A stretch of 64,000 nt of DNA from Candidatus Poseidoniales archaeon (GTDB lineage Archaea > Thermoplasmatota > Poseidoniia > Poseidoniales > Poseidoniaceae). The stretch is taken from NCBI GenBank assembly GCA_038146705.1, contig JAYQSB010000001.1, forward strand, positions 7,166 to 71,165, read 5' to 3'. Positions 2,851 to 23,196 of this stretch are shown here, piece after piece. Numbering within the stretch: the first letter of the stretch is position 1; every line of letters starts with the position of its first letter. The position numbers and the translations under genes were made by a program. The notes under the pieces were generated by a model. The model was not told the DNA's origin. It searched no databases and was given only the letters and a program-made list of their open reading frames with translations.

Positions 2851-3405
2851 GTGTTACAAAAAGCCGTGAGTCAGGAAGAGGATGATGACTGGACCGCCTC
2901 ACAAGATGCTGCGAAATTGCTCGAAACGGTGCGAAGGGAGGTGACGCCAACAAGGGTTGGTTTTGCAGGTGTGATGGTTTTGCTCGTTCTCGGTGTACTT
3001 CTCTCAGGTTGGTATTATGTCCTGCCTAGAGATGATGTCATGGTTGAAACCCGATATATGCAACGCAGCGGCCATTTGATGATGGCACAAATTCATAACG
3101 ATGGAAGCCGTGATATTACAGATGTATCACTTCAGATATCATTTGAAACAATCGATGGCATCATCCTTGAATCAACTCAAATCGACGTCGACAAGATTTC
3201 TTCGCATTCCTCACTTGCTGGAGATGAACTGGAAATGCACGTGATTGGATATTCTGTTTGGGATGACTATGTTATCCACATCGAACTTCAATGGAAAGAC
3301 TATGATGGTGAGCGACGCCAACAACAATGGTATCATCAAGTTGGCGAGTGGTCTCAAGAAATGTTCTTTGATGAGGCGGATGGCAAATTTTGGCCACTTG
3401 GTTAA
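2851..3405 (+). CDS. Small single-pass membrane protein, unknown function
   Basis: 184-aa ORF with GTG start. One clear TM helix, GFAGVMVLLVLGVLLSGWYYV, follows an acidic N-terminus. Sits between two surface-protein genes on the same strand. Confidence 0.5.
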   Translation: MLQKAVSQEEDDDWTASQDAAKLLETVRREVTPTRVGFAGVMVLLVLGVLLSGWYYVLPRDDVMVETRYMQRSGHLMMAQIHNDGSRDITDVSLQISFETIDGIILESTQIDVDKISSHSSLAGDELEMHVIGYSVWDDYVIHIELQWKDYDGERRQQQWYHQVGEWSQEMFFDEADGKFWPLG

Positions 3406-3421
3406 AGATGAGGCGAATACA

Positions 3422-11037: not shown

Positions 11038-11544
11038 ATGCTCTATTGGGTGAATGAAGTGGCCACATTCGATTCTGTACCTGCAGAGTACCTTTCAATC
11101 GGCATTTTAACCATCGTTGGAATTTTGATGCCTCTAACGAATTTTATCATCACATGGGTTGTTCGACCACGTGTTGATCCAGCCCGTCCGCACATCACCA
11201 AATCGTATTTGCTTGAGGGATACGAACGAGACCACAGTCTGTATCCTCGTCGATTGACGACGTTCGAATGTGGTAGCGAACCAGTCGGTGAAGCGATGAT
11301 TCAATTCCACTTTCAGTACTACTGGTATGCAATTATTTTCCTTGTGTTTGATGTTGCATTCATGTTCCTTGTGTTAGGAGGCATGCTCGTTGGCGATGCA
11401 ACCTCAGAAACATTATCTGCGGCGGAACGCAGTACTGCGGTCGAAGATGCTAAAGCAGCCTCACTCGTTCTTCTCGGATTTTTCACCATGGTTTCTCTTG
11501 GTGTTTGGTATGTATTTCGCAAGCGAGGTCGAATTTACATTTGA
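11038..11544 (+). CDS. nuoA: NADH-quinone oxidoreductase subunit A
   Basis: Motif FECGSEPVGEAMIQFHFQYYWYAIIFLVFDVAFMFL is typical of NuoA/ND3. First gene of the nuo operon. Confidence 0.9.
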   Translation: MLYWVNEVATFDSVPAEYLSIGILTIVGILMPLTNFIITWVVRPRVDPARPHITKSYLLEGYERDHSLYPRRLTTFECGSEPVGEAMIQFHFQYYWYAIIFLVFDVAFMFLVLGGMLVGDATSETLSAAERSTAVEDAKAASLVLLGFFTMVSLGVWYVFRKRGRIYI

Positions 11545-11550
11545 GGTGAT
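11543..11550 (+). promoter_or_regulatory. Shine-Dalgarno-like site GAGGTGAT immediately before the nuoB ATG
   Basis: The same GAGGTGA(T) element recurs before nuoD, nuoH, nuoI, nuoL, nuoN, rpoF, spt5 and rpl1. Confidence 0.6.
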
Positions 11551-12147
11551 ATGATGGGAACGCAAGAAGAGAATTATGCTGCATTCAACAGTAAAGCATT
11601 GCTTGAGGTCGTTGGAGATGTGACTGATGAGGCCCTCAAGGCTACAAAAATCAAGCAATTTTTGAGCGTGCTCGCCGGTCGATTTTTCAATTGGGCTGGT
11701 CGAAAATCGTTGTTCACGCTCCACCTTGGTATCAAGTGCTGCGCTATCGAGATGGCGGCAGCAGCAACCCCTCGATTTGACGGTGACCGTTTCGGTGTTC
11801 TTTTCCGTTCATCCCCTCGCCAATCCGATGTCCTTCTCGTCAACGGACCAATTTCGAAGAAATTTGCAGATAAAATCGTTCGACTTTGGGAGCAAATGCC
11901 AGAACCAAAATATTGCATTGCCATGGGCGAATGTGCTATCTCAGGCGGCCCTTACTTCCAGTCGTACAACATTCTCGAGGGCGTCGATACCGTCATCCCA
12001 GTCGATGTCTATATCCCAGGATGCCCTCCTCGTCCCGAAGCACTCATCGATGGTTTCGGTTTACTTCGTGAGAAAATCATTCGAATCGGTGCAGCACCGA
12101 GCTCAGGCCGCAAGGGCGAGAAACCAGTGATTGTAGGGGAGGACTGA
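11551..12147 (+). CDS. nuoB: NADH-quinone oxidoreductase subunit B (N2 Fe-S subunit)
   Basis: CCAIEM, SPRQSDVLLVNGPISKK, CAISGGPY and GCPPRPEAL motifs of NuoB/PSST. Confidence 0.95.
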   Translation: MMGTQEENYAAFNSKALLEVVGDVTDEALKATKIKQFLSVLAGRFFNWAGRKSLFTLHLGIKCCAIEMAAAATPRFDGDRFGVLFRSSPRQSDVLLVNGPISKKFADKIVRLWEQMPEPKYCIAMGECAISGGPYFQSYNILEGVDTVIPVDVYIPGCPPRPEALIDGFGLLREKIIRIGAAPSSGRKGEKPVIVGED

Positions 12148-12149
12148 AC

Positions 12150-12803
12150 ATGGGAATGGCCATTACCCTTGAACAAAATGTAGCAGCTGCAAACGATTGT
12201 GTTGCCCGAATCGAGAAACGATTCGGTGGAACTGGTATCACATCGTCAGTCGAACATCATTCAAACGCTCACAAGATGGCGTTTGTTCGTATCACAACGC
12301 CACCACAGCATTGGCCGGCCCTTGCAAAATGGCTGCGATTTGATTTGGATGTGAACCATTGCTCAATGATCACTGGAACCCACTTTCCAGAAGGCTCACC
12401 AGAACGAGGGTGGGAGGTTGCATATCATTTCATGCGTCAACCGGTAAAAAATCAAGCACCTCACACACATTGTGTACATGTTGCTGAATCACTCAAAGGT
12501 GATGATGTGCCGATGGAATTTGAAGTTCTTATCCCTCTTGAAAACAACGACACTCCATCAGTACCCAGCGTGCAGAATATTTGGGTCGGTGCAGATTGGA
12601 ATGAGAAGGAAACTTGGGATTTGGTCGGAATACAATTTGAAGGTCACGAGAACATGCATCGAGTCCTCAACCCACACGATAGCCCTGAGGGATTTCACCC
12701 ACTCCAAAAGCAACACAAAATCCGATATCACGATTACAATGAAATGTATGACGATGCACAAGGATTTGCTCGAAAACCAGCGGATGAGGGCCGCGTGAAG
12801 TAG
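12150..12803 (+). CDS. nuoC: NADH-quinone oxidoreductase subunit C (30 kDa)
   Basis: Position between nuoB and nuoD. Motif WNEKETWDLVGIQFEGHENMHRVL matches the ERE-x-D-G-F-GHP signature region of NuoC. Confidence 0.85.
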   Translation: MGMAITLEQNVAAANDCVARIEKRFGGTGITSSVEHHSNAHKMAFVRITTPPQHWPALAKWLRFDLDVNHCSMITGTHFPEGSPERGWEVAYHFMRQPVKNQAPHTHCVHVAESLKGDDVPMEFEVLIPLENNDTPSVPSVQNIWVGADWNEKETWDLVGIQFEGHENMHRVLNPHDSPEGFHPLQKQHKIRYHDYNEMYDDAQGFARKPADEGRVK

Positions 12804-12811
12804 GTGATATC

Positions 12812-13951
12812 ATGGCACAAATGTGGATTACAATGGGACCTCAGCATCCAATGACCCACGGGTTGTGGACGCTTCGTGTCAAAGTTGATGGTGAAACTGT
12901 TGTCGATACAGAAGCCGAATTAGGATACATTCACCGAGGCGTTGAGAAGATTTGCGAATCAAGAGATTTCACTCAAGTGACGCCCTATTGCGACCGACTT
13001 TGTTACGTGAGTGCGATGACATGGGCGAACTCGTACATCTATGCCGCTGAAGATTTACTCGAGGTCGACGTCCCTGAACGAGCAGAATACATCCGGCTTA
13101 TTGCCGCAGAATGCCAACGTCTTGCCTCTCACCTCATGTGGTTGGGTGCTTACGGGCCCGACATTGGCAGCCTCACACTCATGACGTGGTGTATGCGAGA
13201 CAGAGAAATGTTCCTTGACTTGCTTCAGGAACTTGGCGGTTCACGAATGCATTACAATTATCCTCGTGTCGGCGGTGTCAAGCGTGATATTCCTGTCGGG
13301 TTTGCAGACAGGCTGATTGCGAAAATCAAACTTTTCGAGAAGCGAATTGATGAATATGAGATGATGCTTGACGAATCGACAATTTGGCTTGTTCGACTTC
13401 AAGGTGTAGGTTATGCACAAGCCGAGGACATGGTCAATGCAGGCGTGACTGGACCAAACATTCGTGCAGCAGGCGTCAATTACGACGTTCGATGGGCACA
13501 TCCGTATTCGGTGTATGATCAAGTCGACTGGGAGCCAGCAGTCGAGAAACCGACTTCGGTCAAAGGTGCAGATTGCTATGACAGATACAGAGTTCGAATG
13601 GAAGAAATGCGACAATCATGCCGTATGATTCTCGATGCTATTGAGAAAATTCCTGGTGGAAAAAACACGAACTACGCCAACGGCGATGAAATGATTATCG
13701 CTAAGGCTCCAACACGAGCACCTGAAGGTGCTACTGGGTTTAGCAACTACGAGTGCACTCGTGGTGCTTCGCAATTCTACATTCAAGGTGGCGGTGATGG
13801 CCGAGGAAAGAACCCGTATCGATTGTCGATTCGTTCACCTATGTTCATTACTATTCCATATGTTGCAAAAACAATGATTGGATACAAAGTCGCTGACATT
13901 CCAGCGATCATGGGTAGTTTCGACCCGTGTATCGGGGAGACAGACCGCTGA
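12812..13951 (+). CDS. nuoD: NADH-quinone oxidoreductase subunit D (49 kDa)
   Basis: N-terminal MGPQHPMTHGLWTLRVKVDGETVV...LGYIHRGVEKICE is typical of NuoD. C-terminal SFDPCIGETDR. Confidence 0.95.
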   Translation: MAQMWITMGPQHPMTHGLWTLRVKVDGETVVDTEAELGYIHRGVEKICESRDFTQVTPYCDRLCYVSAMTWANSYIYAAEDLLEVDVPERAEYIRLIAAECQRLASHLMWLGAYGPDIGSLTLMTWCMRDREMFLDLLQELGGSRMHYNYPRVGGVKRDIPVGFADRLIAKIKLFEKRIDEYEMMLDESTIWLVRLQGVGYAQAEDMVNAGVTGPNIRAAGVNYDVRWAHPYSVYDQVDWEPAVEKPTSVKGADCYDRYRVRMEEMRQSCRMILDAIEKIPGGKNTNYANGDEMIIAKAPTRAPEGATGFSNYECTRGASQFYIQGGGDGRGKNPYRLSIRSPMFITIPYVAKTMIGYKVADIPAIMGSFDPCIGETDR

Positions 13952-13957
13952 GGTGAT
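13950..13957 (+). promoter_or_regulatory. Shine-Dalgarno-like site GAGGTGAT before nuoH
   Basis: Directly precedes the ATG at 13958 and overlaps the nuoD stop. Confidence 0.6.
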
Positions 13958-15469
13958 ATGATGGATGACGCATACGACCTTCGAACATTTCTTTCAGGAC
14001 TTGTTGACAACATTGTTCATTCAGCAGTCGAGGGTACGGCTCTCGAAGATAATGCAGACGCACTTTCGTTTGGCTTGGGTACATTCCTCGTTGTCAATGT
14101 CGTCTTCTTGATGCTCTTCTTTTCGCAATTTGCTATTCTCTGGATTGAGCGAAAAGCTGTTGCCCGAATGCAGGACAGATATGGGGCAACAACTGCTCTT
14201 CGGTCACTCTGGGTTGGAGAAAATGGAACAACTGCAGGCGAATGGTGGAACATGTTGCCGTTCGGCCTTGGAAAACCCATTGGAGTAGTCCACGGTTGGC
14301 TCAACAAGAAATTTGGAAATCGAGATGAAAAATTTGCAACAGTCGACCGAGTGAACAACCGTTCATGGATGGGTTTCACCATCCTTCCCGGCTTTTTCCA
14401 GAACGTTGCAGATGGTATGAAGTTCCTCGTGAAGGAACACATGGTACCTCAGCGAGCTGACAAACTCATCTTTGAGGTTTCACCATTCCTTATTGTATCA
14501 TCGACATTGTTGATTTTGGGGATGATTCCACTATCGAGCGGAATTTATGCAACGAACCCTGACCTTTCAATTTTGTACGCCATCGCAATCTTTGGCATAG
14601 CACCAATCGGGGTATTTTTCGCAGGGTGGTCGTCCAACAACAAATACACACTTATTGGCGGTATTCGATCTGCTGCCCAACTTACTGCATACGAGATTCC
14701 TCTTCTTTTGACACTTCTTTCTGTTGCAATTCTCACTGGTACCTTCAACATCATCGAAAGCATTCACTTCCAACACTCAGCGGGCGTTTGGAACCTTTTC
14801 CTCATGCCACTTGGTGCTGCGTTATTCCTTGTTACGATGATTGCAGAGGTTGAGCGAGTTCCATTCGACATGCCAGAAGCTGAAGCAGAACTTGTCGAAG
14901 GCTGGTGGACTGAATACGGCGGTATGCGATTCGGGATGTTGTTCATGGCAGAATACATACGAACCTATGCTGCTTGTTTCTTGTTCACACACTTCTTCCT
15001 CGGCGGATGGCATTTGCCGCTTCATGGCACAATTGGAAGCATCGAATTCCTCGGCATTGGTGCTGCATATCATTTGATTCCAGGTGCGGGTGTAACACTC
15101 ATCAAGTCATGGCTCGTGTTCCTCATCGTTTTCGTTTGGGCACGATTTGCACTCGCACGTATTCGTACAGACCAAATTCTTGAGTTTGGATGGCGAATGC
15201 TCCTACCACTTGCAGTTCTGCAAGTCATTCTCGCTATGGTGTACCGCTTGTACTTCTTTGATGCAGGCGGCATGGACGACTCAGTATCCGGCGGCATGGC
15301 TTGGGACTTGTTTGGTATCCCAATGCTTGTACCAATTCTCACAACGCTCTTCTGGACAGGATTGTTCCTCATCTATCTCAACGATGAAGGTAAATCAGTC
15401 AATGAAGAACGAATGTTCCATGTCTACACGGTGGAACCAGCAGGGACGGTTGTCCCAGGAACGGAGTGA
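13958..15469 (+). CDS. nuoH: NADH-quinone oxidoreductase subunit H (enlarged, 503 aa)
   Basis: Motifs ERKAVARMQDRYG, VADGMKFLVKE, EVERVPFDMPEAEAELVEGWWTEYGGMRFG and RARFALARIRTDQ of NuoH/ND1. Carries an internal insertion and a C-terminal extension of roughly 70 aa. Confidence 0.9.
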   Translation: MMDDAYDLRTFLSGLVDNIVHSAVEGTALEDNADALSFGLGTFLVVNVVFLMLFFSQFAILWIERKAVARMQDRYGATTALRSLWVGENGTTAGEWWNMLPFGLGKPIGVVHGWLNKKFGNRDEKFATVDRVNNRSWMGFTILPGFFQNVADGMKFLVKEHMVPQRADKLIFEVSPFLIVSSTLLILGMIPLSSGIYATNPDLSILYAIAIFGIAPIGVFFAGWSSNNKYTLIGGIRSAAQLTAYEIPLLLTLLSVAILTGTFNIIESIHFQHSAGVWNLFLMPLGAALFLVTMIAEVERVPFDMPEAEAELVEGWWTEYGGMRFGMLFMAEYIRTYAACFLFTHFFLGGWHLPLHGTIGSIEFLGIGAAYHLIPGAGVTLIKSWLVFLIVFVWARFALARIRTDQILEFGWRMLLPLAVLQVILAMVYRLYFFDAGGMDDSVSGGMAWDLFGIPMLVPILTTLFWTGLFLIYLNDEGKSVNEERMFHVYTVEPAGTVVPGTE

Positions 15470-15478
15470 GGTGAACAT

Positions 15479-16441
15479 ATGCCAACACACCCACATGCAA
15501 GACCAAATTTCAGAAACCTCTTTTGGTACCCATTTAAGATTACACTGATTACAGCACTGCGAACTTTTCCGTTTTTAGGAAAGCGGTTCGGAAAGAAAAT
15601 GGGGGCATACCACAACACTTCCCATCCAGAATTCCTTGACGACGGTAGTCGTACACGTGCTAAAGCATCTGCCGTAATGAACGATGTTGAGAAACAAGAA
15701 TTTGCACCAGACAGAGTGACATCCGACCTTAAACCAACACTTTGGAAACCTCAAACAGTCCAATATCCATACGAGCGACTCGAAGACATGGAACCATGGC
15801 TCTTCGTCCCAGGTAACTATAACGGTCGAATTGGTGTCATTTGGGAAACCTGCACCGCTTGTAAAATGTGTGTCAACATTTGTCCAAACGACTGTTTGCA
15901 CATGACAACCGAACTCAGAGTGGACGTTCTCGACAGCGCTGAAGGTGAATATGGTGGATACGGAGTTGACCTTGAAGTTGGAAAATTTGCAGCGCAGAAA
16001 CTCGATGAAGTTGCTGAAACTCAAACCGGTTTCAATCACGTCACAGCCCATGATGATGTTCCACAAGAATGGCGTTTTGGAGAAGTTCTCGACCTCTCTT
16101 CCTCGACAGCTACAATTCGTTGGAATGACACAGGTACTGAAGAAGTGGTTGAACAAACCAACCTTCACACAGCAGATGACCAAATCGTATCAGGAAGAAT
16201 CGATATTGGCAGATGCATGTTCTGTGGATTGTGCATGGAAGCATGCGGTTTCACGTCGTTCTTCATGACCAACGAATACGATGGAATGTCCGGATTTACT
16301 CGACAAGACCTTTGGTTCGATGCAAGTCGAACTCGTGTTCTCCCCTCCGTCCATCAAGAAGCGGTTGATGAAGAACTTGCAAAGCGTGCGATCAAAGAAC
16401 GCGACAAGCGTGCAAAGAAGGCAGCAAAGGGGGAAAAATGA
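15479..16441 (+). CDS. nuoI: NADH-quinone oxidoreductase subunit I (2x[4Fe-4S]) with a large inter-cluster insertion
   Basis: Two ferredoxin cluster motifs, CTACKMCVNICP and CMFCGLCMEACG. TVQYPYE motif. 320 aa, which I recall as roughly double the usual NuoI size. Confidence 0.9.
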   Translation: MPTHPHARPNFRNLFWYPFKITLITALRTFPFLGKRFGKKMGAYHNTSHPEFLDDGSRTRAKASAVMNDVEKQEFAPDRVTSDLKPTLWKPQTVQYPYERLEDMEPWLFVPGNYNGRIGVIWETCTACKMCVNICPNDCLHMTTELRVDVLDSAEGEYGGYGVDLEVGKFAAQKLDEVAETQTGFNHVTAHDDVPQEWRFGEVLDLSSSTATIRWNDTGTEEVVEQTNLHTADDQIVSGRIDIGRCMFCGLCMEACGFTSFFMTNEYDGMSGFTRQDLWFDASRTRVLPSVHQEAVDEELAKRAIKERDKRAKKAAKGEK

Positions 16442-16442
16442 G

Positions 16443-16718
16443 ATGGATATAGCAACCACAGTTGAATCTGCAGTCTTCTTTTTGTTTGCAACCATTACAA
16501 TTGTGGGTGCACTTGGTCTCATTTACGCCCAACGCGTTGCACATTCCATGCTTTCGCTCATCTTCTGTTTCATGGCAGTATCAGGAATATTCATCCTCAT
16601 GGGAGCAGAGTTCCTCGCCGCAATTCAAATTCTCGTGTACCTAGCGAGCGTTGGTCTTGTCGTTCTGTTCGGCATCATGCTGACAAGAAGACAAATCTTA
16701 GAGGAGGATTTTGAATGA
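16443..16718 (+). CDS. nuoJ: NADH-quinone oxidoreductase subunit J, N-terminal part (split NuoJ)
   Basis: MDIATTVESAVFFLFATITIVGALGLIY...EFLAAIQILVYLASVGLVVLFGIMLT is typical of the NuoJ N-terminal half. The ATG at 16443 follows the nuoI stop. The ORF-track start at 16281 lies inside nuoI. Confidence 0.8.
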   Translation: MDIATTVESAVFFLFATITIVGALGLIYAQRVAHSMLSLIFCFMAVSGIFILMGAEFLAAIQILVYLASVGLVVLFGIMLTRRQILEEDFE

Positions 16719-16984
16719 AATTCCTTTCCCTCATGACTCGAATGGGTCTTTTGGCTCTAGGTTTTATTCTCATCGCCACCGTTAGTGCTGATTCAGTTTG
16801 GCAAGAAGCAAGTGACGACGCGCCCACGACATCTGAATTAGCCGATGACCTTCTCAATGAATGGGGCTTACCTCTACTGGCACTCGGTATCTTGATGGCC
16901 GTTGCAATGATTGGTGCTGCCTACCTCGTACGAGATGAACGAATGGAAAATCTTCTTTGGGAATTTGGAGGTGAAGAAGAGTGA
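16715..16984 (+). CDS. nuoJ: NADH-quinone oxidoreductase subunit J, C-terminal part (split NuoJ)
   Basis: ATGA overlap with the previous ORF. C-terminal TM WGLPLLALGILMAVAMIGAAYLV resembles the last NuoJ helix. Confidence 0.65.
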   Translation: MKFLSLMTRMGLLALGFILIATVSADSVWQEASDDAPTTSELADDLLNEWGLPLLALGILMAVAMIGAAYLVRDERMENLLWEFGGEEE

Positions 16985-17283
16985 TCGACCCCGCATGGGT
17001 TTCTGGCCTAGCAGCCCTCCTTTTCATCATCGGTCTTGCCGGTGCTTTTACCCGGAAAAATGCCATCATCGTACTCATGTGTATCGAATTGATGCTCAAT
17101 GCAGCAAATCTCCAATTCGCAGCAGCAGCGGTTCATCATGGTGACACAACAGGCTGGGTCTACACGCTTTTTGCTATTGCTATTGCAGCGAGTGAAGTTG
17201 CGATCGGTCTCGCCATTTTCCTTGCCATGTATGGAAAGCATGAATCAATCACATTGGACGATGTCAATGTGCTAAAAAATTGA
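16981..17283 (+). CDS. nuoK: NADH-quinone oxidoreductase subunit K
   Basis: 100 aa with three TM helices. Motif CIELMLNAANL...AASEVAIGLAI is typical of NuoK/ND4L. GTGA overlap with the upstream ORF. Confidence 0.9.
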   Translation: MIDPAWVSGLAALLFIIGLAGAFTRKNAIIVLMCIELMLNAANLQFAAAAVHHGDTTGWVYTLFAIAIAASEVAIGLAIFLAMYGKHESITLDDVNVLKN

Positions 17284-17289
17284 GGTGGT

Positions 17290-19827
17290 ATGATGGGTTC
17301 AACAGGTACAACAGAAACTATTCATAGCAGCGTGATTGATTTCGCACCATATATTGTCCTCCTTCCAATGATTGCATTCCCAATCATTCTTCTTTTTGGA
17401 CGACTGTTTAATGGCAACAAGGTATGGATTTCAACCTTCAAAGAGGGCGGAATTTTCGCACTGGTTACCATGGCAACAAGCCTCCTCCTAGCCCTTTTGC
17501 TCATTAAAGACTACATTGGAGCCTATGGTGATGATAGTAAAAGTGCCCTTCATGTCTTCGACTGGTTTTCCTCTGCGATGTGGAATGGCGGAGCAACAAC
17601 AACCGAGATTTCATTTGGATTTGGCCTCTACATCGACCACATCACCGTTATGTTGTTGTTCATTGCATCTTTCCTTTGCTTGCTCATCAACACCTTTGCA
17701 ATCGGATACATGAACACCGACCCAATCAACGATAACCGAAATCATCGTTTCTATGCTGAATTCGTGCTCTTTTGTGCAGGAATGCTCGGTATGATTCTTG
17801 CTGATTCATTCCTTTGGTTGTTCATTTTCTGGGAATTGATGGGTCTCTGTTCCTACTTGCTTATCGGCTTCTATTACGAACGCCCAAGTGCAGCATATGC
17901 CGCCAAGAAAGCCTTCCTCACAACCCGTGTTGGTGACGTATTCCTCATGGTCGGCCTTGCTATGCTTTGGCATTTGTTTGGTTCACTCGATTACGCAGTC
18001 GTCTTTGATTCAGATAACATCGCTGCCGTTGACCCTGCCTCTCTTCAGTGGGCTCTTGGAATGATGTTTATCGGAGCTGTTGGTAAATCTGCACAATTCC
18101 CACTGCATGTCTGGCTACCAGATGCAATGGAAGGTCCAACACCTGTATCTGCTCTCATTCACGCAGCAACAATGGTGAACGCAGGTCTATACCTCGTCGC
18201 TCGAATGTTCCCATTCTTTGGTGCTGAAGCAATGCATGGTGAACTTGTTGACCTCGCCTTCATTATCGCAAGCATTGGTGGAATCACCGCTGTGATGGCT
18301 GCAAGCATTGCCTTTGTTCAGATGGACCTCAAGAAGGTACTTGCCTATTCCACCATGTCTCAACTTGCCTACATCTTTACAGGCCTTGGCTGTGCATTGT
18401 GGCTAGCAAACTCACTCGACTGGCATCACGACGATGACGCACATTACATCGTGATTATCGCCTTTGGTGCAGCTCTTTTCCATCTCTTCAATCACGCAAT
18501 GGCCAAGGGTATGCTCTTCATGGCAAGTGGTGCGGTGATTCATGAAGTTCATCATGCACACCATCACCTGCATCATGATGACCACCACCACACACCCAAG
18601 GAACTCTATATGTTGTCAGATTATTTGGTTTCAAAGAAATTAAGCACGTTTGAATTTTTCAAAACCATTGACCTCGATGGCTCGGGAGAAATTGACATGT
18701 TTGAATTCCAGACAGCGCTAAAGAATACAGAGGTTGCAGATCTTCCACCATGGGAAATGGGCGACCTCATGAAAGCGATTGACCTTGACGGCAACGGCAC
18801 AATCAATGTTCCAGAACTTGATATTGTTCTTGCAAAAATCAAGGGGAAAACCTACGAAGAACACGAACACGATGACCATCATGACGACCACTTCGATGCA
18901 CAATCGATGGAAAATATGGGAGGATTAGCTTCCAAGATGCCAATCACGGCTACGGCAATGCTCGTTGGTTCTCTCTCAATCATGGGTTTCCCTCTCATCG
19001 GTGGATTTTGGTCCAAGGAAGGCATCATTGCTAACGCATGGCGAGTAGGCCTTGAAGACCCACGATTCTTCTTCCCTGCAGCATGTGTTCTCCTTGGTGC
19101 AGCTATGACTGGATTTTACATGTCGAGAATGTGGCTCAAAACCTTTGCAGGCTCACCAAACAACGACGTTGCAGCACATGTCGGTCCAACGAACACTTGG
19201 ATCAAAATCCCACTCTTTACCCTCACCTTTGTGACCTTGGGTGGAATCCTCTTCGCAGGTATGGGCTTTACCCACTGGGCACCAGATTCTGGATACGCCC
19301 TCATGTCTGAGAAGGGGCTCTTTGAAGGAATTGGATACGAACTTGGGCATGCGTTTGCCAACCATGATATGTTCTTCTTCACTTTAACATACATCGCCAT
19401 ATTCCTTGGTGCAATAGTCGGACCTGGTCTAGCACTCTCACTCTACGGTGGAGCCTTGGATGAAGGCGAAACAGCAAAACCATGGTTCACACCAATTTTG
19501 ATGCTCAATGCAGCAATCAAAGGGCGTTATTCTTGGGATAACTCTGCTTTTGCAACCTCAAGTCTTTCAAGAGCCTTGCAAAATCGATTGTATTTTGACC
19601 ACTATTACGATATGGCGATGCTCAAGATTGTAGCAGCGTTTTCGCTCAAGGCAGCCCATGCAGATAGCAAATTCATCGACGGAGCAATCAAAACCATTGA
19701 ATCCACATCGCAAAGTGCTTCGACATCGTTGAGAAAATTGACCACTGGTTCAGCACGGGATTACATCCTCATGGCCGCAGTTGGTACGCTGATGTTGTTT
19801 GCTCTTATTTGGGGGGTGATGGCTTGA
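17290..19827 (+). CDS. nuoL: NADH-quinone oxidoreductase subunit L with inserted His-rich/EF-hand module
   Basis: FPLHVWLPDAMEGPTPVSALIHAATMVNAGLYLVAR and FWELMGLCSYLLIGF motifs of NuoL/ND5. 845 aa. The insertion is described in the findings. Confidence 0.92.
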   Translation: MMGSTGTTETIHSSVIDFAPYIVLLPMIAFPIILLFGRLFNGNKVWISTFKEGGIFALVTMATSLLLALLLIKDYIGAYGDDSKSALHVFDWFSSAMWNGGATTTEISFGFGLYIDHITVMLLFIASFLCLLINTFAIGYMNTDPINDNRNHRFYAEFVLFCAGMLGMILADSFLWLFIFWELMGLCSYLLIGFYYERPSAAYAAKKAFLTTRVGDVFLMVGLAMLWHLFGSLDYAVVFDSDNIAAVDPASLQWALGMMFIGAVGKSAQFPLHVWLPDAMEGPTPVSALIHAATMVNAGLYLVARMFPFFGAEAMHGELVDLAFIIASIGGITAVMAASIAFVQMDLKKVLAYSTMSQLAYIFTGLGCALWLANSLDWHHDDDAHYIVIIAFGAALFHLFNHAMAKGMLFMASGAVIHEVHHAHHHLHHDDHHHTPKELYMLSDYLVSKKLSTFEFFKTIDLDGSGEIDMFEFQTALKNTEVADLPPWEMGDLMKAIDLDGNGTINVPELDIVLAKIKGKTYEEHEHDDHHDDHFDAQSMENMGGLASKMPITATAMLVGSLSIMGFPLIGGFWSKEGIIANAWRVGLEDPRFFFPAACVLLGAAMTGFYMSRMWLKTFAGSPNNDVAAHVGPTNTWIKIPLFTLTFVTLGGILFAGMGFTHWAPDSGYALMSEKGLFEGIGYELGHAFANHDMFFFTLTYIAIFLGAIVGPGLALSLYGGALDEGETAKPWFTPILMLNAAIKGRYSWDNSAFATSSLSRALQNRLYFDHYYDMAMLKIVAAFSLKAAHADSKFIDGAIKTIESTSQSASTSLRKLTTGSARDYILMAAVGTLMLFALIWGVMA

Positions 19828-21464
19828 CCGATTACATTTCTTTACCACTCATCGCTTTCCCACTTGCTTCAAGTTTGATTTTACTCATGTTTGTGTCAAA
19901 CTTAACAGAAGAGACCAAACAGCGCGTTGGGCCAATTATTCGAATGGCTTCACTCATCTTTTCACTCATCATGCTTGCATTAACTACAGGCATGTTCTTC
20001 GAATACTTTGGTGATTTTGAAGGATGGGAAGGCATTAATTTCAACACATATGAATTCCAAGAACGATATCTGTGGATTGAATCATTAGGAATTTACTGGA
20101 GTGTCGGACTTGACGCTCTTTCCTTCCCAATGGTGTGGCTCACAACCTTCCTTCTCCCAGTGACGATTATTGCGACATGGCATGAAAAATCAGCAGCGAC
20201 GTATTTCCCGCTTCTTCTCATGATGGGTGGTGCACTGATCGGAGTTTTCGTTGCACTCGACCTGTTTATGTTCTATGTGTTCTGGGAATTAACCTTGATT
20301 CCGATGTTTTTCCTCATCCTCAAATGGGGTGGAGATGATCGCAAGTATGCGTCTCAAAAGTTCTTCATTTACACTTTTTCAGCATCCGTTATCATGTTGC
20401 TTGGTTTAGTAACATTGTATTTCTTACAAGATACAACCACACCGCTAAACTATGCTGGCTCCATGACCAGCAGGTCGTTTGACATTCCAACGATTATCGA
20501 TGCATCGATGATTGCAAATACAAACGGTTGGTTCTTAGGCGAAAGCGTTCAGAAAATTCTCTTCGTCATGCTCATGCTCGGATTCCTCGTCAAACTTCCA
20601 TCTGTACCATTCCATACTTGGTTACCAGATGCACACGTCCAAGCCCCAACAGGTGGTTCTATGTTGCTTGCTGGGGTCATGTTGAAAATGGGTGCATACG
20701 GTATGTTCCGACTGCCGTTTTCGCTCTTCCCTCATGCAATGGAATCATTCCAACTTGCCCTTATGTTGTTTGGTATGGTATCACTTGTTTGGGGTGCGAT
20801 TGTCTGTCTTGGACAAACCAATCTCAAGAAAATGGTTGCATACTCCTCGGTATCTCACATGGGTGTCATTCTCATCGGTGTTGCGACCATGCAACCGCTT
20901 GGGTGGGCTGCAGCTCTTTTCATGATGTTTGCACACGGTATCATCAGTCCGATGCTCTTCGCTGTTTGTGGTGCATTCAAGCATCATTATCATTCGATGG
21001 AGATTGGTGCTATGCGAGGTATGGCAAAACATTCGCCTTGGCTCGCCACCTCGATGATGTTCGCTTGGATGGCATCACTTGGATTACCTCTTCTCGCAGG
21101 GTTCGTGGCTGAAATCATGATGTTCATCGCACTTTGGTACTTCATCGTTGCAGAAGGTTGGAGTATTTGGTGGATGGCTGGTCCTTTGCTCGTTCTTGTC
21201 GTTACAGCAGCGTACTATCTATGGTCCATGCAACGCACAATTTTCGAAGGTGGAGAGGTGACACAACCACCTGCATCAATGGAAGGCCATGCGATACCAG
21301 ACATCACAAACGCTGAGAAATTTGCAATGCTTCTTCTCGCTCTTTTCACAATCCTCTTTGGTATCTTGCCATGGATTGCTCTCGATATGATGAGCGATTG
21401 GACAAACCAAATGTTTGATTCAGTCATCTTGCCTATACTTGGTGGATTTGAAGGAGGTGCCTGA
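19809..21464 (+). CDS. nuoM: NADH-quinone oxidoreductase subunit M
   Basis: PFHTWLPDAHVQAPTGGSMLLAGVMLKMGAYG motif of NuoM/ND4. TTG start overlaps the nuoL end, so the exact start is uncertain. Confidence 0.9.
   Translation: MGGDGLTDYISLPLIAFPLASSLILLMFVSNLTEETKQRVGPIIRMASLIFSLIMLALTTGMFFEYFGDFEGWEGINFNTYEFQERYLWIESLGIYWSVGLDALSFPMVWLTTFLLPVTIIATWHEKSAATYFPLLLMMGGALIGVFVALDLFMFYVFWELTLIPMFFLILKWGGDDRKYASQKFFIYTFSASVIMLLGLVTLYFLQDTTTPLNYAGSMTSRSFDIPTIIDASMIANTNGWFLGESVQKILFVMLMLGFLVKLPSVPFHTWLPDAHVQAPTGGSMLLAGVMLKMGAYGMFRLPFSLFPHAMESFQLALMLFGMVSLVWGAIVCLGQTNLKKMVAYSSVSHMGVILIGVATMQPLGWAAALFMMFAHGIISPMLFAVCGAFKHHYHSMEIGAMRGMAKHSPWLATSMMFAWMASLGLPLLAGFVAEIMMFIALWYFIVAEGWSIWWMAGPLLVLVVTAAYYLWSMQRTIFEGGEVTQPPASMEGHAIPDITNAEKFAMLLLALFTILFGILPWIALDMMSDWTNQMFDSVILPILGGFEGGA
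21453..21459 (+). promoter_or_regulatory. Shine-Dalgarno site GGAGGTG before nuoN
   Basis: Lies 6 nt upstream of the ATG at 21466. The nuoM stop is at 21462..21464. Confidence 0.65.
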
Positions 21465-21465
21465 G

Positions 21466-23196
21466 ATGAGCAATGCATCAACAAAAACTATGCAACCATT
21501 TGGTGAAGGCTTCGTTGAAGCATTTGCCCCAGAGATGACTATTTTTGTCGGTTTACTCGTTCTCATCATCGTTCCAAACCTTGGTGATGGAAAATTTAGA
21601 TTACCTCTCACAAATATTCGTCTACCTTGGTTCTTTGGCGGAAATCGTAGCAAGTTTGAGCAAAATCCACACCTACCGGGTCTACTCGCCTCTGTCTTTG
21701 CCTCAATTGCCTTCATTCTGACGCTATTGTCCTTTGTGGGCGGTATGCACAGCGTTGAGGTGACTTCCGCTTCAGGACACAACCTTCTCACCATCAACGA
21801 ATTTAGTCGTCTGTTTGAACTTATTTTCTTCGGGGCTATTGCACTTGCGTGCATCGCTTCAATGAATCGACTCGCTCCGTATCCATCAAGCGATCGAACG
21901 GCTCAAGGCCTCTACAACAACCGAAGGCAAGCGGACTTCTACATTCTGATGATGACAACAGCAATCGGTATGTCCATCGTCGCTCTTTCTCAAGACCTGT
22001 TCTTCTTGTTCATCGGTCTTGAATTGGCGTCATTCTCTACATATATCCTGGTCAGTTTCCTCAAAGAAAGTGAAGAGGGTACAGAAGCGGGAATGAAGTA
22101 TTTCATCGTCGGTTCAGTCGCTTCAGGTGTCGGTTTGTATGGATTGTCACTTCTGTACCTTTGGTCAGGTTCACTCCAATTCGATGTCCTTAGTGACAAA
22201 TTTGCTGCTGATGGATTGGATGCACTCCCACTCATTGCTCTTGGTTTTATTCTCGTCGGCTTTGGTTTCAAGGTGAGTGCAGCACCGTTCCACTTTGCAG
22301 CACCTGACGCCTACGCAGGCTCGATGAGCCCAATTGCTGGTGTACTTGCAACTGCAAGCAAAGCGATGGGAATGGTTGGTCTAATTCGAATCCTTCTCGT
22401 TCTAGCCTCGCCTGACATGTCGGATGATGGTACGGTTTGGCTTGTCGCCCTCGGTGTGTTTTCTGTCGTGACGATGACATGGGGAAATATTGCCGCTCTT
22501 GGCTCGACGAATCCAAAACGAATGCTCGCATACTCGTCAGTCGCCCATGCTGGATATATGCTTGCAGCACTTACAGCCGTGGGTGCATGGAATTGGAGTG
22601 AATCACTTTCGGGTGATGCAGCCGAAGCAGCAGCAATGGTACTTACTGCCTTAATGTTCCACATGATCGTCCTTGTTTGTTTCAAACTAGGTGCATTTTT
22701 AGTCATCTCAATCCTTGAACAAGAAGGAGGTGGCCACACACTCGAGTCACTTGGTGGATTAGCAAAGAGAGAACCGTTCCTTGCCGTAACCATGTTCATC
22801 TTCATGTTGTCACTTGCTGGCGTCCCTCCACTCGCAGGCTTCATGTCAAAATTACTCGTGATTATGGGTATTGTTAAAGTTGCAGCAGGTGATATTGGGG
22901 CTGCAATAGCAAACGGAGAATCAATTTCATTCTCTGATATTCACTGGGTTTGGTATCTTGCACTCATCATGGTCATCAATTCTGCAATCTCCGTATATTA
23001 TTACCTTCGAGTGGGTATTGTTATGTTCTTCCATGATGCTCCAGAAGGCAAGACACTCTTGCCGCAAGGTAACTCTGTTCGACTTGCTATCATCGCATGT
23101 CTAACTCTGACACTTTACTTTGGTATTTCATCCGACGGCCTCATCGAAGTTTGCCAAAGTGCTGCTGATGCATTACAGGCATCCTGGCAGAACTAA
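21466..23196 (+). CDS. nuoN: NADH-quinone oxidoreductase subunit N
   Basis: APFHFAAPDAYAGSMSPIAGVLATASK motif of NuoN/ND2. Start chosen at the SD-preceded ATG 21466 rather than the ORF-track start 21415, which lies inside nuoM. Confidence 0.9.
   Translation: MSNASTKTMQPFGEGFVEAFAPEMTIFVGLLVLIIVPNLGDGKFRLPLTNIRLPWFFGGNRSKFEQNPHLPGLLASVFASIAFILTLLSFVGGMHSVEVTSASGHNLLTINEFSRLFELIFFGAIALACIASMNRLAPYPSSDRTAQGLYNNRRQADFYILMMTTAIGMSIVALSQDLFFLFIGLELASFSTYILVSFLKESEEGTEAGMKYFIVGSVASGVGLYGLSLLYLWSGSLQFDVLSDKFAADGLDALPLIALGFILVGFGFKVSAAPFHFAAPDAYAGSMSPIAGVLATASKAMGMVGLIRILLVLASPDMSDDGTVWLVALGVFSVVTMTWGNIAALGSTNPKRMLAYSSVAHAGYMLAALTAVGAWNWSESLSGDAAEAAAMVLTALMFHMIVLVCFKLGAFLVISILEQEGGGHTLESLGGLAKREPFLAVTMFIFMLSLAGVPPLAGFMSKLLVIMGIVKVAAGDIGAAIANGESISFSDIHWVWYLALIMVINSAISVYYYLRVGIVMFFHDAPEGKTLLPQGNSVRLAIIACLTLTLYFGISSDGLIEVCQSAADALQASWQN

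What the first reader, a model, noticed from the sequence alone, without database searches (positions are those of the whole stretch)
18541..18915. Pair of canonical EF-hands flanked by His-rich runs inserted into NuoL
About 120 aa lie between the conserved NuoL segments HAMAKGMLFMASGAVIHE and MGGLASKMP. As I recall, E. coli NuoL has only a short linker at this position (HHEQNIFKMGGL). The insertion contains:
- a His-rich run, HEVHHAHHHLHHDDHHH;
- an EF-hand with loop DLDGSGEIDMFE (18670..18705), preceded by the helix STFEFFKTI;
- a second EF-hand with loop DLDGNGTINVPE (18781..18816), preceded by MGDLMKAI;
- a second His/Asp run, HEHDDHHDDH.

Both loops satisfy the 12-residue EF-hand consensus: D at position 1, D at 3, S or N at 5, G at 6, I at 8 and E at 12. 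A Ca2+ or metal-sensing module grafted into the antiporter-like proton-pumping subunit of complex I is not something I know to be described. It suggests divalent-cation regulation of respiratory proton pumping.
Basis: partly seen in the sequence, partly recalled or inferred. Interest (0 to 1): 0.7.

Follow-up and report, generated by a model that had tools for sequence, protein, structure and literature searches.

The report
Calcium-binding module built into archaeal NuoL
The proton-pumping NuoL subunit of respiratory complex I in the abundant marine archaea Poseidoniales carries a conserved, probably cytoplasm-facing pair of calcium-binding EF-hands on histidine-rich tethers, and related copies sit in their ATP synthase, hinting that calcium may control energy conversion in these cells.

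Summary
ORF 17290-19827 is NuoL, and 125 extra residues (18541-18915) hold two canonical EF-hand loops between His/Asp-rich runs. Pfam EF-hand models score above their curated cut-offs.

It is not an assembly artefact. Of 77 Poseidoniales species-representative genomes, 51 have the two-EF insert, 14 (Thalassarchaeaceae) have a homologous insert with a degenerate first loop, and 12 keep only a 35-42-aa His/Asp loop. The module is under purifying selection.

Alignment to E. coli NuoL places the insert between TM11 (H334/H338/K342) and TM12 (K399/D400). By the known topology this loop is cytoplasmic.

The module is not unique to NuoL. Copies 43-64% identical occur in A-type ATPase subunit I (with His-rich flanks, at the junction of the cytoplasmic and membrane domains), at the C-terminus of the NuoJ fragment in Thalassarchaeaceae, and in membrane proteins with SAP domains.

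The most likely function is a cytoplasmic Ca2+-responsive regulatory element on chemiosmotic machines. This is inferred, not shown.

No description was found in the searched literature. Verdict: new variant of a known kind, interest about 0.7.

The parts
11038..23196 (+). 11-subunit nuo-type operon, nuoA-B-C-D-H-I-J1-J2-K-L-M-N, with no nuoEFG
   Evidence: ORFs. Pfam hits: Oxidored_q4, NADHdh, Fer4, Oxidored_q3 (twice), Oxidored_q2 and Proton_antipo_M (three times). nuoB, nuoC and nuoD are assigned by reading the sequence only.
17290..19827 (+). nuoL, 845 aa
   Evidence: TIGR01974 scores 429.9 bits (cut-off 407.5); Proton_antipo_M and Proton_antipo_N also hit. The catalytic residues E182, K266, H291, H398, H402, K406, K576 and E577 align with E. 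coli E144, K229, H254, H334, H338, K342, K399 and D400.
18445..18540 (+). TM11 (aa 386-417), carrying H398, H402 and K406
   Evidence: Alignment with E. coli NuoL. In the low-confidence AF2 model the helix spans 382-425 and so runs on into the His run.
18541..18591 (+). N-terminal His/Asp-rich tether, HEVHHAHHHLHHDDHHH (11 His in 17 aa)
   Evidence: Conserved in all 77 readable species-representative loci, including those without EF-hands. Predicted disordered, pLDDT below 50.
18592..18861 (+). EF-hand pair module (aa 435-524): a leader helix followed by two helix-loop-helix units
   Evidence: Pfam EF-hand_7 scores 45.1 bits. The AF2 module model has core pLDDT 74-87, with helices at 20-31, 36-42, 53-62, 73-80 and 90-111 and paired strands at 50-52 and 87-89. 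The top Foldseek hits are calmodulin and parvalbumin.
18670..18705 (+). EF-hand loop 1, DLDGSGEIDMFE
   Evidence: Positions 1, 3, 5, 6, 9 and 12 are invariant (D, D, S, G, D, E) in 49 species representatives.
18781..18816 (+). EF-hand loop 2, DLDGNGTINVPE
   Evidence: Ligand positions across species: D1, D/N3, N/D5, G6, N/D9, E12. P11 is invariant.
18862..18897 (+). C-terminal His/Asp-rich tether, HEHDDHHDDHFD
   Evidence: Predicted disordered. Retained in the relatives without EF-hands.
18925..19020 (+). TM12 (aa 546-577), ending in K576/E577 (equivalent to E. coli K399/D400)
   Evidence: Alignment.
16715..16984 (+). nuoJ C-terminal fragment (J2). It carries no module here, but its Thalassarchaeaceae orthologues have a C-terminal EF-pair module.
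   Evidence: Pfam Oxidored_q3 positions 84-146. Module hits in the upstream ORF of 11 MGIIb loci. P0165 sequence.

Best explanation
What it is. A roughly 90-residue Ca2+-binding EF-hand pair (a leader helix plus two canonical EF-hands) hangs on two disordered His/Asp-rich tethers. It is spliced into the cytoplasmic loop between TM11 and TM12 of NuoL, the distal antiporter-like subunit of an 11-subunit archaeal complex I. TM11 carries the His-His-Lys of the central proton-transfer axis. TM12 carries the terminal Lys/Glu. The insert belongs to a Poseidoniales-specific module family that also decorates the cytoplasmic face of A-type ATP synthase subunit I and, in Thalassarchaeaceae, the C-terminus of a NuoJ fragment.

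What is shown: the module's identity, its conservation, purifying selection on it, the insertion site and the paralogues.

What rests on established topology plus indirect support: the cytoplasmic location.

What is inferred: the EF pair binds cytoplasmic Ca2+. Its Ca2+-dependent conformational change is passed through the short tethers to TM11/TM12, or to the start of the lateral helix HL. This modulates proton translocation, and it does so in step with the ATP synthase, which carries the same module. The His/Asp tethers probably add a second input or function, either transition-metal/pH sensing or proton collection at the membrane surface.
For: - Canonical loops and HMM hits above the curated cut-offs.
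- An EF-hand pair fold is predicted, with paired loop strands. All the best structural neighbours are Ca2+ sensors or buffers.
- Ca2+-ligand positions 1, 3, 5, 9 and 12 are invariant or conservatively swapped (D/N), while positions 2, 4, 7, 10 and 11 vary, across 49 species and 70 protein clusters.
- dN/dS of the module is about 0-0.15, similar to the rest of NuoL at 0.02-0.12.
- The insert sits between E. coli-equivalent residues 358 and 359, that is between TM11 (H334/H338/K342) and TM12 (K399/D400).
- Cytoplasmic side: NuoL has 16 TMs with the N-terminus outside and helix HL inside (established structures 3RKO/4HE8; my knowledge). The K+R bias fits: 7 inside (plus 11 in the HL loop) against 4 outside.
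- The same module, with His-rich flanks, lies between the cytoplasmic N-domain and the membrane domain of ATPase subunit I, inside a normal A-ATPase operon.
- The module also follows TM5 and 'RDER' of NuoJ2, and it is fused to SAP (DNA-binding type) domains.
- All 120 best subunit-I homologues, down to 61% identity, carry EF-hand Pfam hits.
- Precedent: EF-hand insertions proposed to make type II NADH dehydrogenases Ca2+-dependent (PMC5299459).
Against: - No experiment or computation here shows Ca2+ binding or any effect on activity.
- Twelve Poseidoniaceae species do without the EF pair in NuoL, so it is not essential for the enzyme.
- In Thalassarchaeaceae NuoL the first loop has Arg at the Gly-6 position, so at most one site there may bind Ca2+.
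- The full-length model is poor (mean pLDDT 50.3). No contact between the module and TM12 or HL can be claimed.
- Sidedness was not measured directly.
- Whether the window's own organism has the ATPase version was not established. Presence of the ATPase version alongside a nuoL in one MAG was seen only by label (CMA05), and that MAG's NuoL lacks the EF pair.
Confidence: 0.5

Rival explanations
1. Constitutive structural or assembly element. The EF pair binds Ca2+ (or Mg2+) permanently and merely stabilises a lineage-specific cytoplasmic cap on NuoL and on the ATPase stator. It has no signalling role.
For: - Many prokaryotic EF-hand and DxDxDG sites are structural (my knowledge).
- The module is dispensable in 12 species.
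- The first loop is degenerate in Thalassarchaeaceae.
- Parvalbumin-like buffers are among the structural neighbours.
Against: - Both loops keep full sensor-type ligand sets under strong purifying selection across Poseidonia.
- The module sits on disordered tethers rather than packed in a rigid context.
- Free cytoplasmic Ca2+ in prokaryotes is normally sub-micromolar (my knowledge). That makes permanent occupancy of typical EF-hands unlikely.
Confidence: 0.2
2. Protein-protein docking module. The copies on complex I, on the ATP synthase and on other membrane proteins bind one another or a common partner, possibly in a Ca2+-dependent way. This would co-localise the chemiosmotic machines or tether them to a scaffold or to DNA.
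For: - The same module is on several unrelated membrane proteins, some with SAP domains.
- The 'LPPWE' linker and the leader helix are conserved, and either could be an interaction surface.
- EF-hand pairs commonly dimerise, for example S100 proteins and polcalcin, which are among the neighbours.
Against: No partner was identified. Pfam Dockerin_1 scores below its threshold (15.9 against 22.9). No co-variation or complex model was obtained.
Confidence: 0.12
3. The His/Asp-rich loop is the functional core, and the EF pair is an optional add-on. The loop would act as a proton-collecting antenna or buffer at the cytoplasmic surface, or as a Zn/Ni/Cu-binding site that senses or sequesters metals.
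For: - The His/Asp loop (13-18 His in 35-42 aa) is retained where the EF pair is absent.
- His-rich flanks accompany the module only in the two proton-translocating hosts, NuoL and ATPase subunit I. They are absent from the NuoJ2 and SAP-protein copies, whose flanks are acidic.
- The run continues directly from the TM11 helix, which bears H398 and H402.
- His/carboxylate clusters act as proton antennae and Zn2+ sites at the proton entrances of other respiratory enzymes (my knowledge).
Against: This does not explain why the EF ligands are so strictly conserved. His content falls to 7-9 in two Thalassarchaeaceae species. It is compatible with, rather than exclusive of, the best explanation.
Confidence: 0.15
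4. Assembly chimera or sequencing artefact, or an extracellular Ca2+-binding loop bathed in seawater Ca2+.
For: None for an artefact. For the extracellular reading, only the fact that sidedness was not measured here.
Against: - The insert is present in more than 70 protein clusters from ENA, JGI, NCBI and Logan assemblies and in 65 of 77 species-representative genomes.
- It is in frame and under purifying selection.
- The TM count and conserved-residue alignment put the loop on the same side as helix HL.
- The paralogous modules sit next to cytoplasmic domains.
Confidence: 0.03

Closest known systems
NuoL / ND5 / NdhF, the distal antiporter-like subunit of complex I (E. coli 3RKO_L, T. thermophilus 4HE8_L, cyanobacterial NDH-1 6HUM_F)
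   Same: Same family and same catalytic residues on TM5, TM7, TM8, TM11 and TM12. Same TM count after the insert. A C-terminal amphipathic helix followed by a last TM.
   Different: Where the alignment was examined (E. coli NuoL and two NdhF) the TM11-TM12 loop is only about 8-12 residues; the other solved sequences align only up to query residue about 420-424. Here the loop is 128 residues and contains a folded EF-hand pair and two His/Asp runs. The enzyme is an 11-subunit archaeal form without NuoEFG.
[quoted passage not shown]
   Same: A respiratory NADH-oxidising enzyme with an EF-hand inserted between conserved catalytic elements. The insertion is proposed to make activity Ca2+-dependent (PMC5299459).
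   Different: A different, unrelated enzyme: a single-subunit flavoprotein that does not pump protons. It is eukaryotic. The inserted element is described there as an EF-hand motif, with nothing like the leader helix or His-rich tethers seen here. There is no sequence relationship to NuoL.
Calmodulin, parvalbumin and polcalcin-type EF-hand pairs
   Same: Canonical 12-residue loops, paired through a short beta-bridge, with a helix-loop-helix geometry. These are the best sequence and structure neighbours.
   Different: Only one pair, embedded in a polytopic membrane protein. It has a lineage-specific leader helix ('ELxMLxDYL') and an 'LPPWE' inter-EF linker. Identity to calmodulin is only about 30%.
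Cytoplasmic His-rich loops of metal transporters (CDF/ZnT and ZIP families)
   Same: Disordered, cytoplasm-facing His/Asp-rich loops between TM helices. The comparison rests on my knowledge.
   Different: The host here is a proton-pumping subunit, not a metal transporter. There is no sequence homology, and metal binding was not tested.
Poseidoniales A-type ATPase subunit I carrying the same module (P0135 and 119 homologues)
   Same: A module 48-51% identical, with His-rich flanks, inserted at a native 'HH' on the cytoplasmic face next to the first TM segment of a proton-translocating subunit.
   Different: A different host protein and complex. EF1 position 9 is Glu rather than Asp. It occurs more widely than the NuoL version: MAG CMA05 has it while its NuoL lacks the EF pair.

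Membership tests
NuoL (NADH-quinone oxidoreductase subunit L, TIGR01974 / PF00361 + PF00662) | Profile score above the curated cut-off | tested here: met
   TIGR01974 scores 429.9 bits (cut-off 407.5). PF00361 E = 3.5e-63. PF00662 scores 37.5 bits (cut-off 24.5). The equivalog NF005141 is below its cut-off (450.7 against 556), as expected for a divergent archaeal form with insertions.
NuoL | Conserved charged and His residues of the proton path: Glu on TM5, Lys on TM7, His on TM8, His-His-Lys on TM11, Lys-Asp/Glu on TM12 | tested here: met
   E182, K266, H291, H398/H402/K406 and K576/E577 align with E. coli E144, K229, H254, H334/H338/K342 and K399/D400.
NuoL | C-terminal extension with a long lateral helix (HL) and a final TM helix, which distinguishes L from M and N | tested here: inconclusive
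   Long helices at 758-784 and 793-817 and a terminal hydrophobic helix at 822-840 are predicted, but at pLDDT below 50. The match to the NdhF C-terminus is weak (domain 3). Gene order K-L-M-N fits.
EF-hand (Pfam clan; PF13499 EF-hand_7 pair) | A 12-residue loop with ligands at positions 1, 3, 5, 7 (backbone), 9 and 12, Gly at 6 and a hydrophobic residue at 8 | tested here: met
   DLDGSGEIDMFE and DLDGNGTINVPE. The ligand positions are conserved across 49 species.
EF-hand | Profile score above the gathering threshold | tested here: met
   Excised insert: EF-hand_7 45.1/30, EF-hand_5 42.2/25.9, EF-hand_1 41.3/25.4, EF-hand_6 34.6/25 (score/cut-off). In the full protein, EF-hand_5, _1 and _6 pass and EF-hand_7 scores 27.3 against 30.
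EF-hand | Helix-loop-helix fold, with the two hands paired through a short antiparallel beta-bridge | tested here: met
   The AF2 module model has core pLDDT 74-87, with H36-42/E50-52/H53-62 and H73-80/E87-89/H90-111. The Foldseek top 50 are all EF-hand proteins or EF-hand-containing assemblies (probability up to 0.99), although E-values are only 0.03-0.2.
EF-hand | Actual Ca2+ binding | not testable with these tools
   Requires ITC, 45Ca overlay or spectroscopy on the expressed module.
Calmodulin-like Ca2+ sensor (as opposed to a buffer or structural site) | A Ca2+-induced closed-to-open change that exposes a hydrophobic target-binding cleft | not testable with these tools
   Only a single static model is available.
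Dockerin type I | Pfam PF00404 above threshold | tested here: not met
   15.9 bits against a cut-off of 22.9.
Poseidoniales 'LPPWE' EF-pair module family (defined here) | Leader helix ELxMLxxYL, FxFF before EF1, an LPPW(E/D/N) linker, INxPELD in EF2, and more than 40% identity among the non-Thalassarchaeaceae-NuoL copies | tested here: met
   Pairwise identities with the window's NuoL module: ATPase subunit I 51%, SAP membrane protein 64%, NuoJ2 of MGIIb 46-47%, P0173 45%. The Thalassarchaeaceae NuoL module is a divergent member at 26-30% to the window's module (25-36% across the three MGIIa modules).

The most novel reading that the evidence does not exclude
Poseidoniales, among the most abundant planktonic archaea, may run a Ca2+ signalling system that acts directly on the chemiosmotic machinery. 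One shared cytoplasmic EF-hand module, on His-rich tethers, would be hard-wired into the last proton-pumping subunit of complex I, into NuoJ and into the stator and proton-channel subunit of the A-type ATP synthase. A rise in cytoplasmic Ca2+ (for example influx from 10 mM seawater Ca2+ when the membrane is stressed or de-energised) would then gate proton pumping and ATP synthesis or hydrolysis together. To my knowledge this would be the first direct Ca2+ control of complex I and ATP synthase core subunits in any prokaryote.
Probability: 0.3. Interest if true: 0.85.

Novelty: new variant of a known kind. Interest (0 to 1): 0.7.

Why it matters
- Complex I core subunits are among the most conserved membrane proteins. 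No solved structure has a folded domain in the TM11-TM12 loop of an antiporter-like subunit, and no EF-hand has been reported in a complex I core subunit in the literature I could search.
- The insert sits between the two helices that carry the final proton-transfer residues of the whole enzyme. It is therefore a natural handle for testing how conformational input at the distal end affects pumping, which bears on the open question of long-range coupling in complex I.
- A related module sits on the ATP synthase stator. That points to coordinated, possibly Ca2+-dependent, control of energy conversion in uncultured archaea that dominate surface-ocean archaeal communities.
- The module is small and soluble, so Ca2+ and metal binding can be tested at once in vitro even though the organisms are uncultured.

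Tried and rejected
- **Full-length AF2 model of NuoL.** Built with a 15-sequence alignment, it gave mean pLDDT 50.3. It is too poor to place the module relative to HL or TM12. I used only its secondary structure.
- **Foldseek of the module.** It gave only weak E-values (0.03 or higher) because the domain is short and its flanks are disordered. I use it as qualitative support only.
- **Tandem DNA repeats under the His runs.** None found, so simple repeat expansion is not the source.
- **Other EF-hands or module copies in the 64-kb window.** None found.
- **Identity of the polytopic domain of the SAP-module proteins (P0127).** No Pfam, NCBIfam or PDB match outside the EF/SAP part.
- **Showing that one genome carries both the NuoL and the ATPase versions.** Only a MAG label match (CMA05) was found, and there NuoL lacks the EF pair. 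Contig look-ups returned metagenome records and one MAG assembly record that I could not tie to any of the NuoL loci.
- **Gain versus loss.** In the NJ tree the EF-less lineages are basal and paraphyletic within Poseidoniaceae, with module-bearing Thalassarchaeaceae as outgroup. However, the MGIIa NuoL module is closer to paralogous modules than to the MGIIb NuoL module. I could not decide between an ancient insertion with losses and a loss followed by re-insertion or replacement.
- **Initial placement of the insert.** I first assumed the flanking helices were TM12 and TM13, which would put the loop on the periplasmic side. I rejected this after aligning with E. coli NuoL and checking residue numbers.
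- **Literature searches for a prior description.** They returned nothing specific. One paper notes Poseidoniales-specific gene modules 'with calcium-binding domains' (PMC9258230).
Full report
**1. The observation**

The window carries an 11-gene nuo-type operon, nuoA-B-C-D-H-I-J1-J2-K-L-M-N, at 11038-23196 on the + strand. It has no nuoEFG.

ORF 17290-19827 (845 aa) is NuoL:
- TIGR01974 scores 429.9 bits against a cut-off of 407.5.
- Proton_antipo_M has E = 3.5e-63.
- Proton_antipo_N scores 37.5 bits.

It contains a 17-residue run with 11 His, the loops DLDGSGEIDMFE (18670-18705) and DLDGNGTINVPE (18781-18816), and a second His/Asp run.

Pfam EF-hand models pass their gathering scores. On the excised segment EF-hand_7 scores 45.1 (cut-off 30), EF-hand_5 42.2 (25.9) and EF-hand_1 41.3 (25.4). 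A strict EF-loop pattern occurs nowhere else in the 572 six-frame ORFs of the window. No tandem DNA repeat underlies the His runs.

**2. Not an artefact, and how widely it occurs**

A search of 5.8 billion proteins returned 120 close NuoL clusters.
- 70 of them, 711-872 aa long and labelled 'Poseidonia sp.' where labelled, have two EF loops. The remaining two are one cluster with a single regex loop and one my anchor pattern missed.
- 48 of them, about 745-760 aa and labelled Poseidoniaceae or Euryarchaeota MAGs, have none, yet are 75-81% identical elsewhere.

A scan of GTDB species-representative genomes gave 79 loci, all Poseidoniales apart from one probably mis-binned record. One of them, L045, is 99% identical and so the same species as the window.

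Of the 77 loci where the loop can be read:
- 51 have a 120-136-aa insert with two EF loops and 13-20 His.
- 14 Thalassarchaeaceae (MGIIb), about 50% identical overall, have a homologous 126-129-aa insert. Its first loop is degenerate (DLDSSRTLTVDE, with Arg at the Gly-6 position). Its second loop is canonical (DRNGDGEIDPVE).
- 12 Poseidoniaceae have only a 35-42-aa His/Asp loop with 13-18 His.

In 49 species the Ca2+-ligand positions 1, 3, 5, 9 and 12 are invariant or swap only D/N, while the non-ligand positions vary. Pairwise Nei-Gojobori estimates give dN/dS of roughly 0-0.15 for the module, against 0.02-0.12 for the rest of NuoL. Synonymous sites are close to saturation. The module is a maintained, functional part of the protein.

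**3. Where it sits**

Alignment with E. coli NuoL, fetched from NC_000913, gives these equivalences:

| Window NuoL | E. coli NuoL | Helix |
|---|---|---|
| E182 | E144 | TM5 |
| K266 | K229 | TM7 |
| H291 | H254 | TM8 |
| H398 / H402 / K406 | H334 / H338 / K342 | TM11 |
| K576 / E577 | K399 / D400 | TM12 |

The conserved segment 'HAMAKGMLF...' is therefore TM11 and 'MGGL...FWSKE' is TM12. The insert replaces the short E. coli linker at residues 358/359.

NuoL has 16 TM helices, with the N-terminus outside and the lateral helix HL on the cytoplasmic side (published structures 3RKO and 4HE8; my knowledge). TM11 therefore ends, and TM12 begins, at the cytoplasmic (N) side.

Four observations support this:
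- The number of hydrophobic segments after the insert is the same as in E. coli (my reading of the two sequences).
- K+R counts are 7 inside (plus 11 in the HL loop) against 4 outside.
- The 6-7, 8-9 and 10-11 loops have no K/R.
- The paralogous modules described below all adjoin cytoplasmic elements.

All solved NuoL/ND5/NdhF/MrpA sequences align up to query residue about 420-424; the two alignments shown resume at 537.

**4. Structure**

The full-length AF2 model from a 15-sequence alignment is poor (mean pLDDT 50.3). It does show TM11 continuing as a helix to residue 425, into the His run. It also shows a helix-loop-helix pattern in the insert.

The module alone was modelled with 19 NuoL and ATPase module sequences. 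Its core has pLDDT 74-87. It consists of a leader helix, EF1 (helix, loop with strand, helix) and EF2 (the same), with the two loop strands paired. Both His/Asp flanks score below 50 and are presumably disordered.

The Foldseek neighbours are calmodulin, parvalbumin, polcalcin, CaBP1 and troponin C, with probability up to 0.98 but E-values of only 0.03 or higher.

**5. The module is a family**

I searched the 125-aa insert against 1.84 billion cluster representatives. Besides generic multi-EF proteins, this gave single-stretch hits of 42-64% identity in non-NuoL proteins. Pfam and sequence inspection show four kinds of host.

(a) A-type ATPase subunit I (P0135, 783 aa).
- The module has His-rich flanks: NDHHHHDDDHHDDAHGKH ... 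AEHHDDAQPP.
- It lies between the cytoplasmic N-domain (aa 6-297, matching 3RRK_A) and the membrane domain (aa 412-772, matching T. thermophilus subunit I 309-645).
- T. thermophilus has just 'DEHHEADRIP' at that point.
- All 120 best homologues, down to 61% identity, have EF-hand Pfam hits.
- The gene sits in a normal I-K-E-C-F-A operon.

(b) In 11 Thalassarchaeaceae loci, the NuoJ C-terminal fragment carries a canonical EF pair after TM5 and 'RDER'. This fragment is the orthologue of window ORF 16715-16984, which matches Oxidored_q3 positions 84-146.

(c) Polytopic membrane proteins of about 700 aa, with the module plus a C-terminal SAP domain.

(d) Smaller membrane-anchored proteins.

Identities of these copies to the window's module:

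| Module copy | Identity to window NuoL module |
|---|---|
| SAP membrane protein (P0127) | 64% |
| ATPase subunit I (P0135) | 51% |
| NuoJ2, MGIIb | 46-47% |
| NuoL, MGIIb | 26-30% |

MAG CMA05 has the ATPase version (P0370) although its NuoL lacks the EF pair (P0097).

His-rich flanks accompany the module only in the two proton-translocating hosts.

**6. Evolution**

An NJ tree of 698 core columns was rooted on Thalassarchaeaceae. The EF-less lineages fall as basal, paraphyletic branches of Poseidoniaceae, and the two-EF forms make one clade.

Two scenarios fit. Either the insertion predates the order and was deleted once or twice, leaving the His/Asp loop. Or it was lost and later re-inserted or replaced from a paralogue. 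The second scenario is suggested by the higher similarity of the MGIIa NuoL module to paralogous modules than to the MGIIb NuoL module. This is unresolved.

**7. Mechanism**

Shown:
- A conserved EF-hand pair with intact Ca2+ ligand sets.
- Flexible His/Asp tethers.
- A position spliced between the helix bearing H398/H402/K406 and the broken helix bearing K576/E577.
- Paralogues on the ATP synthase stator and on NuoJ.

Resting on established topology plus indirect support:
- The module faces the cytoplasm.

Inferred:
- It binds cytoplasmic Ca2+ in the range typical of canonical loops.
- The resulting conformational change is transmitted to TM11/TM12 or to helix HL and modulates proton translocation.
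- The shared module allows coordinated control of complex I and the ATP synthase.
- The His/Asp runs may add metal or pH sensing, or act as a proton antenna.

Rivals:
- A constitutive structural cap.
- A docking module that links the complexes or a common partner.
- The His/Asp loop as the real functional element, with the EF pair optional.

The 12 EF-less species show that the EF pair is not essential for the enzyme. That fits a regulatory or accessory role better than a catalytic one.

**8. Comparison with what is known**

The closest functional precedent is the EF-hand insertion in eukaryotic type II NAD(P)H dehydrogenases, proposed to confer Ca2+ dependence (PMC5299459). That is an unrelated, non-pumping enzyme.

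Full-text searches found no paper combining EF-hand with NuoL, or with Poseidoniales/Marine Group II complex I. The only related remark is that Poseidoniales-specific gene modules contain calcium-binding domains (PMC9258230).

**9. Verdict**

The feature is real, conserved across the order and previously undescribed as far as I could search. It is a new variant of a known kind: NuoL with a cytoplasmic EF-hand/His-rich regulatory-type module that is shared with the ATP synthase. The Ca2+-regulation mechanism is plausible but untested. Interest is about 0.7.

Noticed in passing
window 16443-16718 and 16715-16984 (+): NuoJ is split into two overlapping ORFs. J1 matches Oxidored_q3 positions 1-63 and J2 matches positions 84-146. 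The break falls in the TM3-TM4 loop region.
   Followed up: partly
window 15479-16441 (+): NuoI is 320 aa, about twice the usual size (my knowledge). It has an N-terminal extension and a roughly 100-aa acidic insertion between the two 4Fe-4S cysteine motifs. Pfam matches only the Fer4 motifs.
   Followed up: no
window 13958-15469 (+): NuoH is 503 aa. About 140 residues precede the start of the NADHdh Pfam match (aa 145-426).
   Followed up: no
window 18406-18444 (+), NuoL aa 373-385: A second small His/Asp patch, 'ANSLDWHHDDDAH', lies in the TM10-TM11 loop, predicted to be on the outer side. E. coli has no counterpart (a 21-aa gap). In other Poseidonia it is expanded to 'HWHEYLADGTKNPDYYVNH'.
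   Followed up: partly
L055 5785-6816, L062 3383-4429, L063 5662-6714 and eight other Thalassarchaeaceae loci: The NuoJ C-terminal fragment is fused to a canonical EF-hand pair. In the long forms (about 345 aa, e.g. P0165) there is also a C-terminal domain resembling the C-terminal extension of alphaproteobacterial NuoE (NF009040 positions 244-388) and the Cdd1/HhH-type domain.
   Followed up: partly
L082 3001-5352 (and L083-L092): A-type ATPase subunit I of Poseidoniales carries a His-rich plus EF-hand pair module between its cytoplasmic and membrane domains. The gene lies in an ordinary I-K-E-C-F-A operon. All 120 best homologues have the module.
   Followed up: yes
P0127, P0134, P0189, P0191 (proteins): Polytopic membrane proteins of about 700-730 aa and unknown family (no Pfam, NCBIfam or PDB match) end in the same EF-pair module followed by a SAP domain. 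That is an odd pairing of a membrane protein with a DNA-binding-type motif.
   Followed up: partly
L020 (NZEQ01000031.1): A contig labelled 'Verrucomicrobiales bacterium ARS100' encodes a NuoL 73% identical to the window's, with the Poseidonia-type EF module. This is probably a mis-binned archaeal contig.
   Followed up: no
window 3245-7996 and 8063-10939 (+): Two very large predicted surface or secreted proteins lie upstream of the nuo operon. One is a 1583-aa subtilase with CARDB and NEW3 domains. The other is a 958-aa protein with Ig-like domains and a C-terminal TM anchor.
   Followed up: no
E. coli NuoL 357-358 'HH' and T. thermophilus subunit I 311-312 'HH': In both host proteins the module is inserted right at a native His-His pair that is present in homologues without the module. 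I cannot tell whether this is coincidence or says something about the site's function.
   Followed up: no
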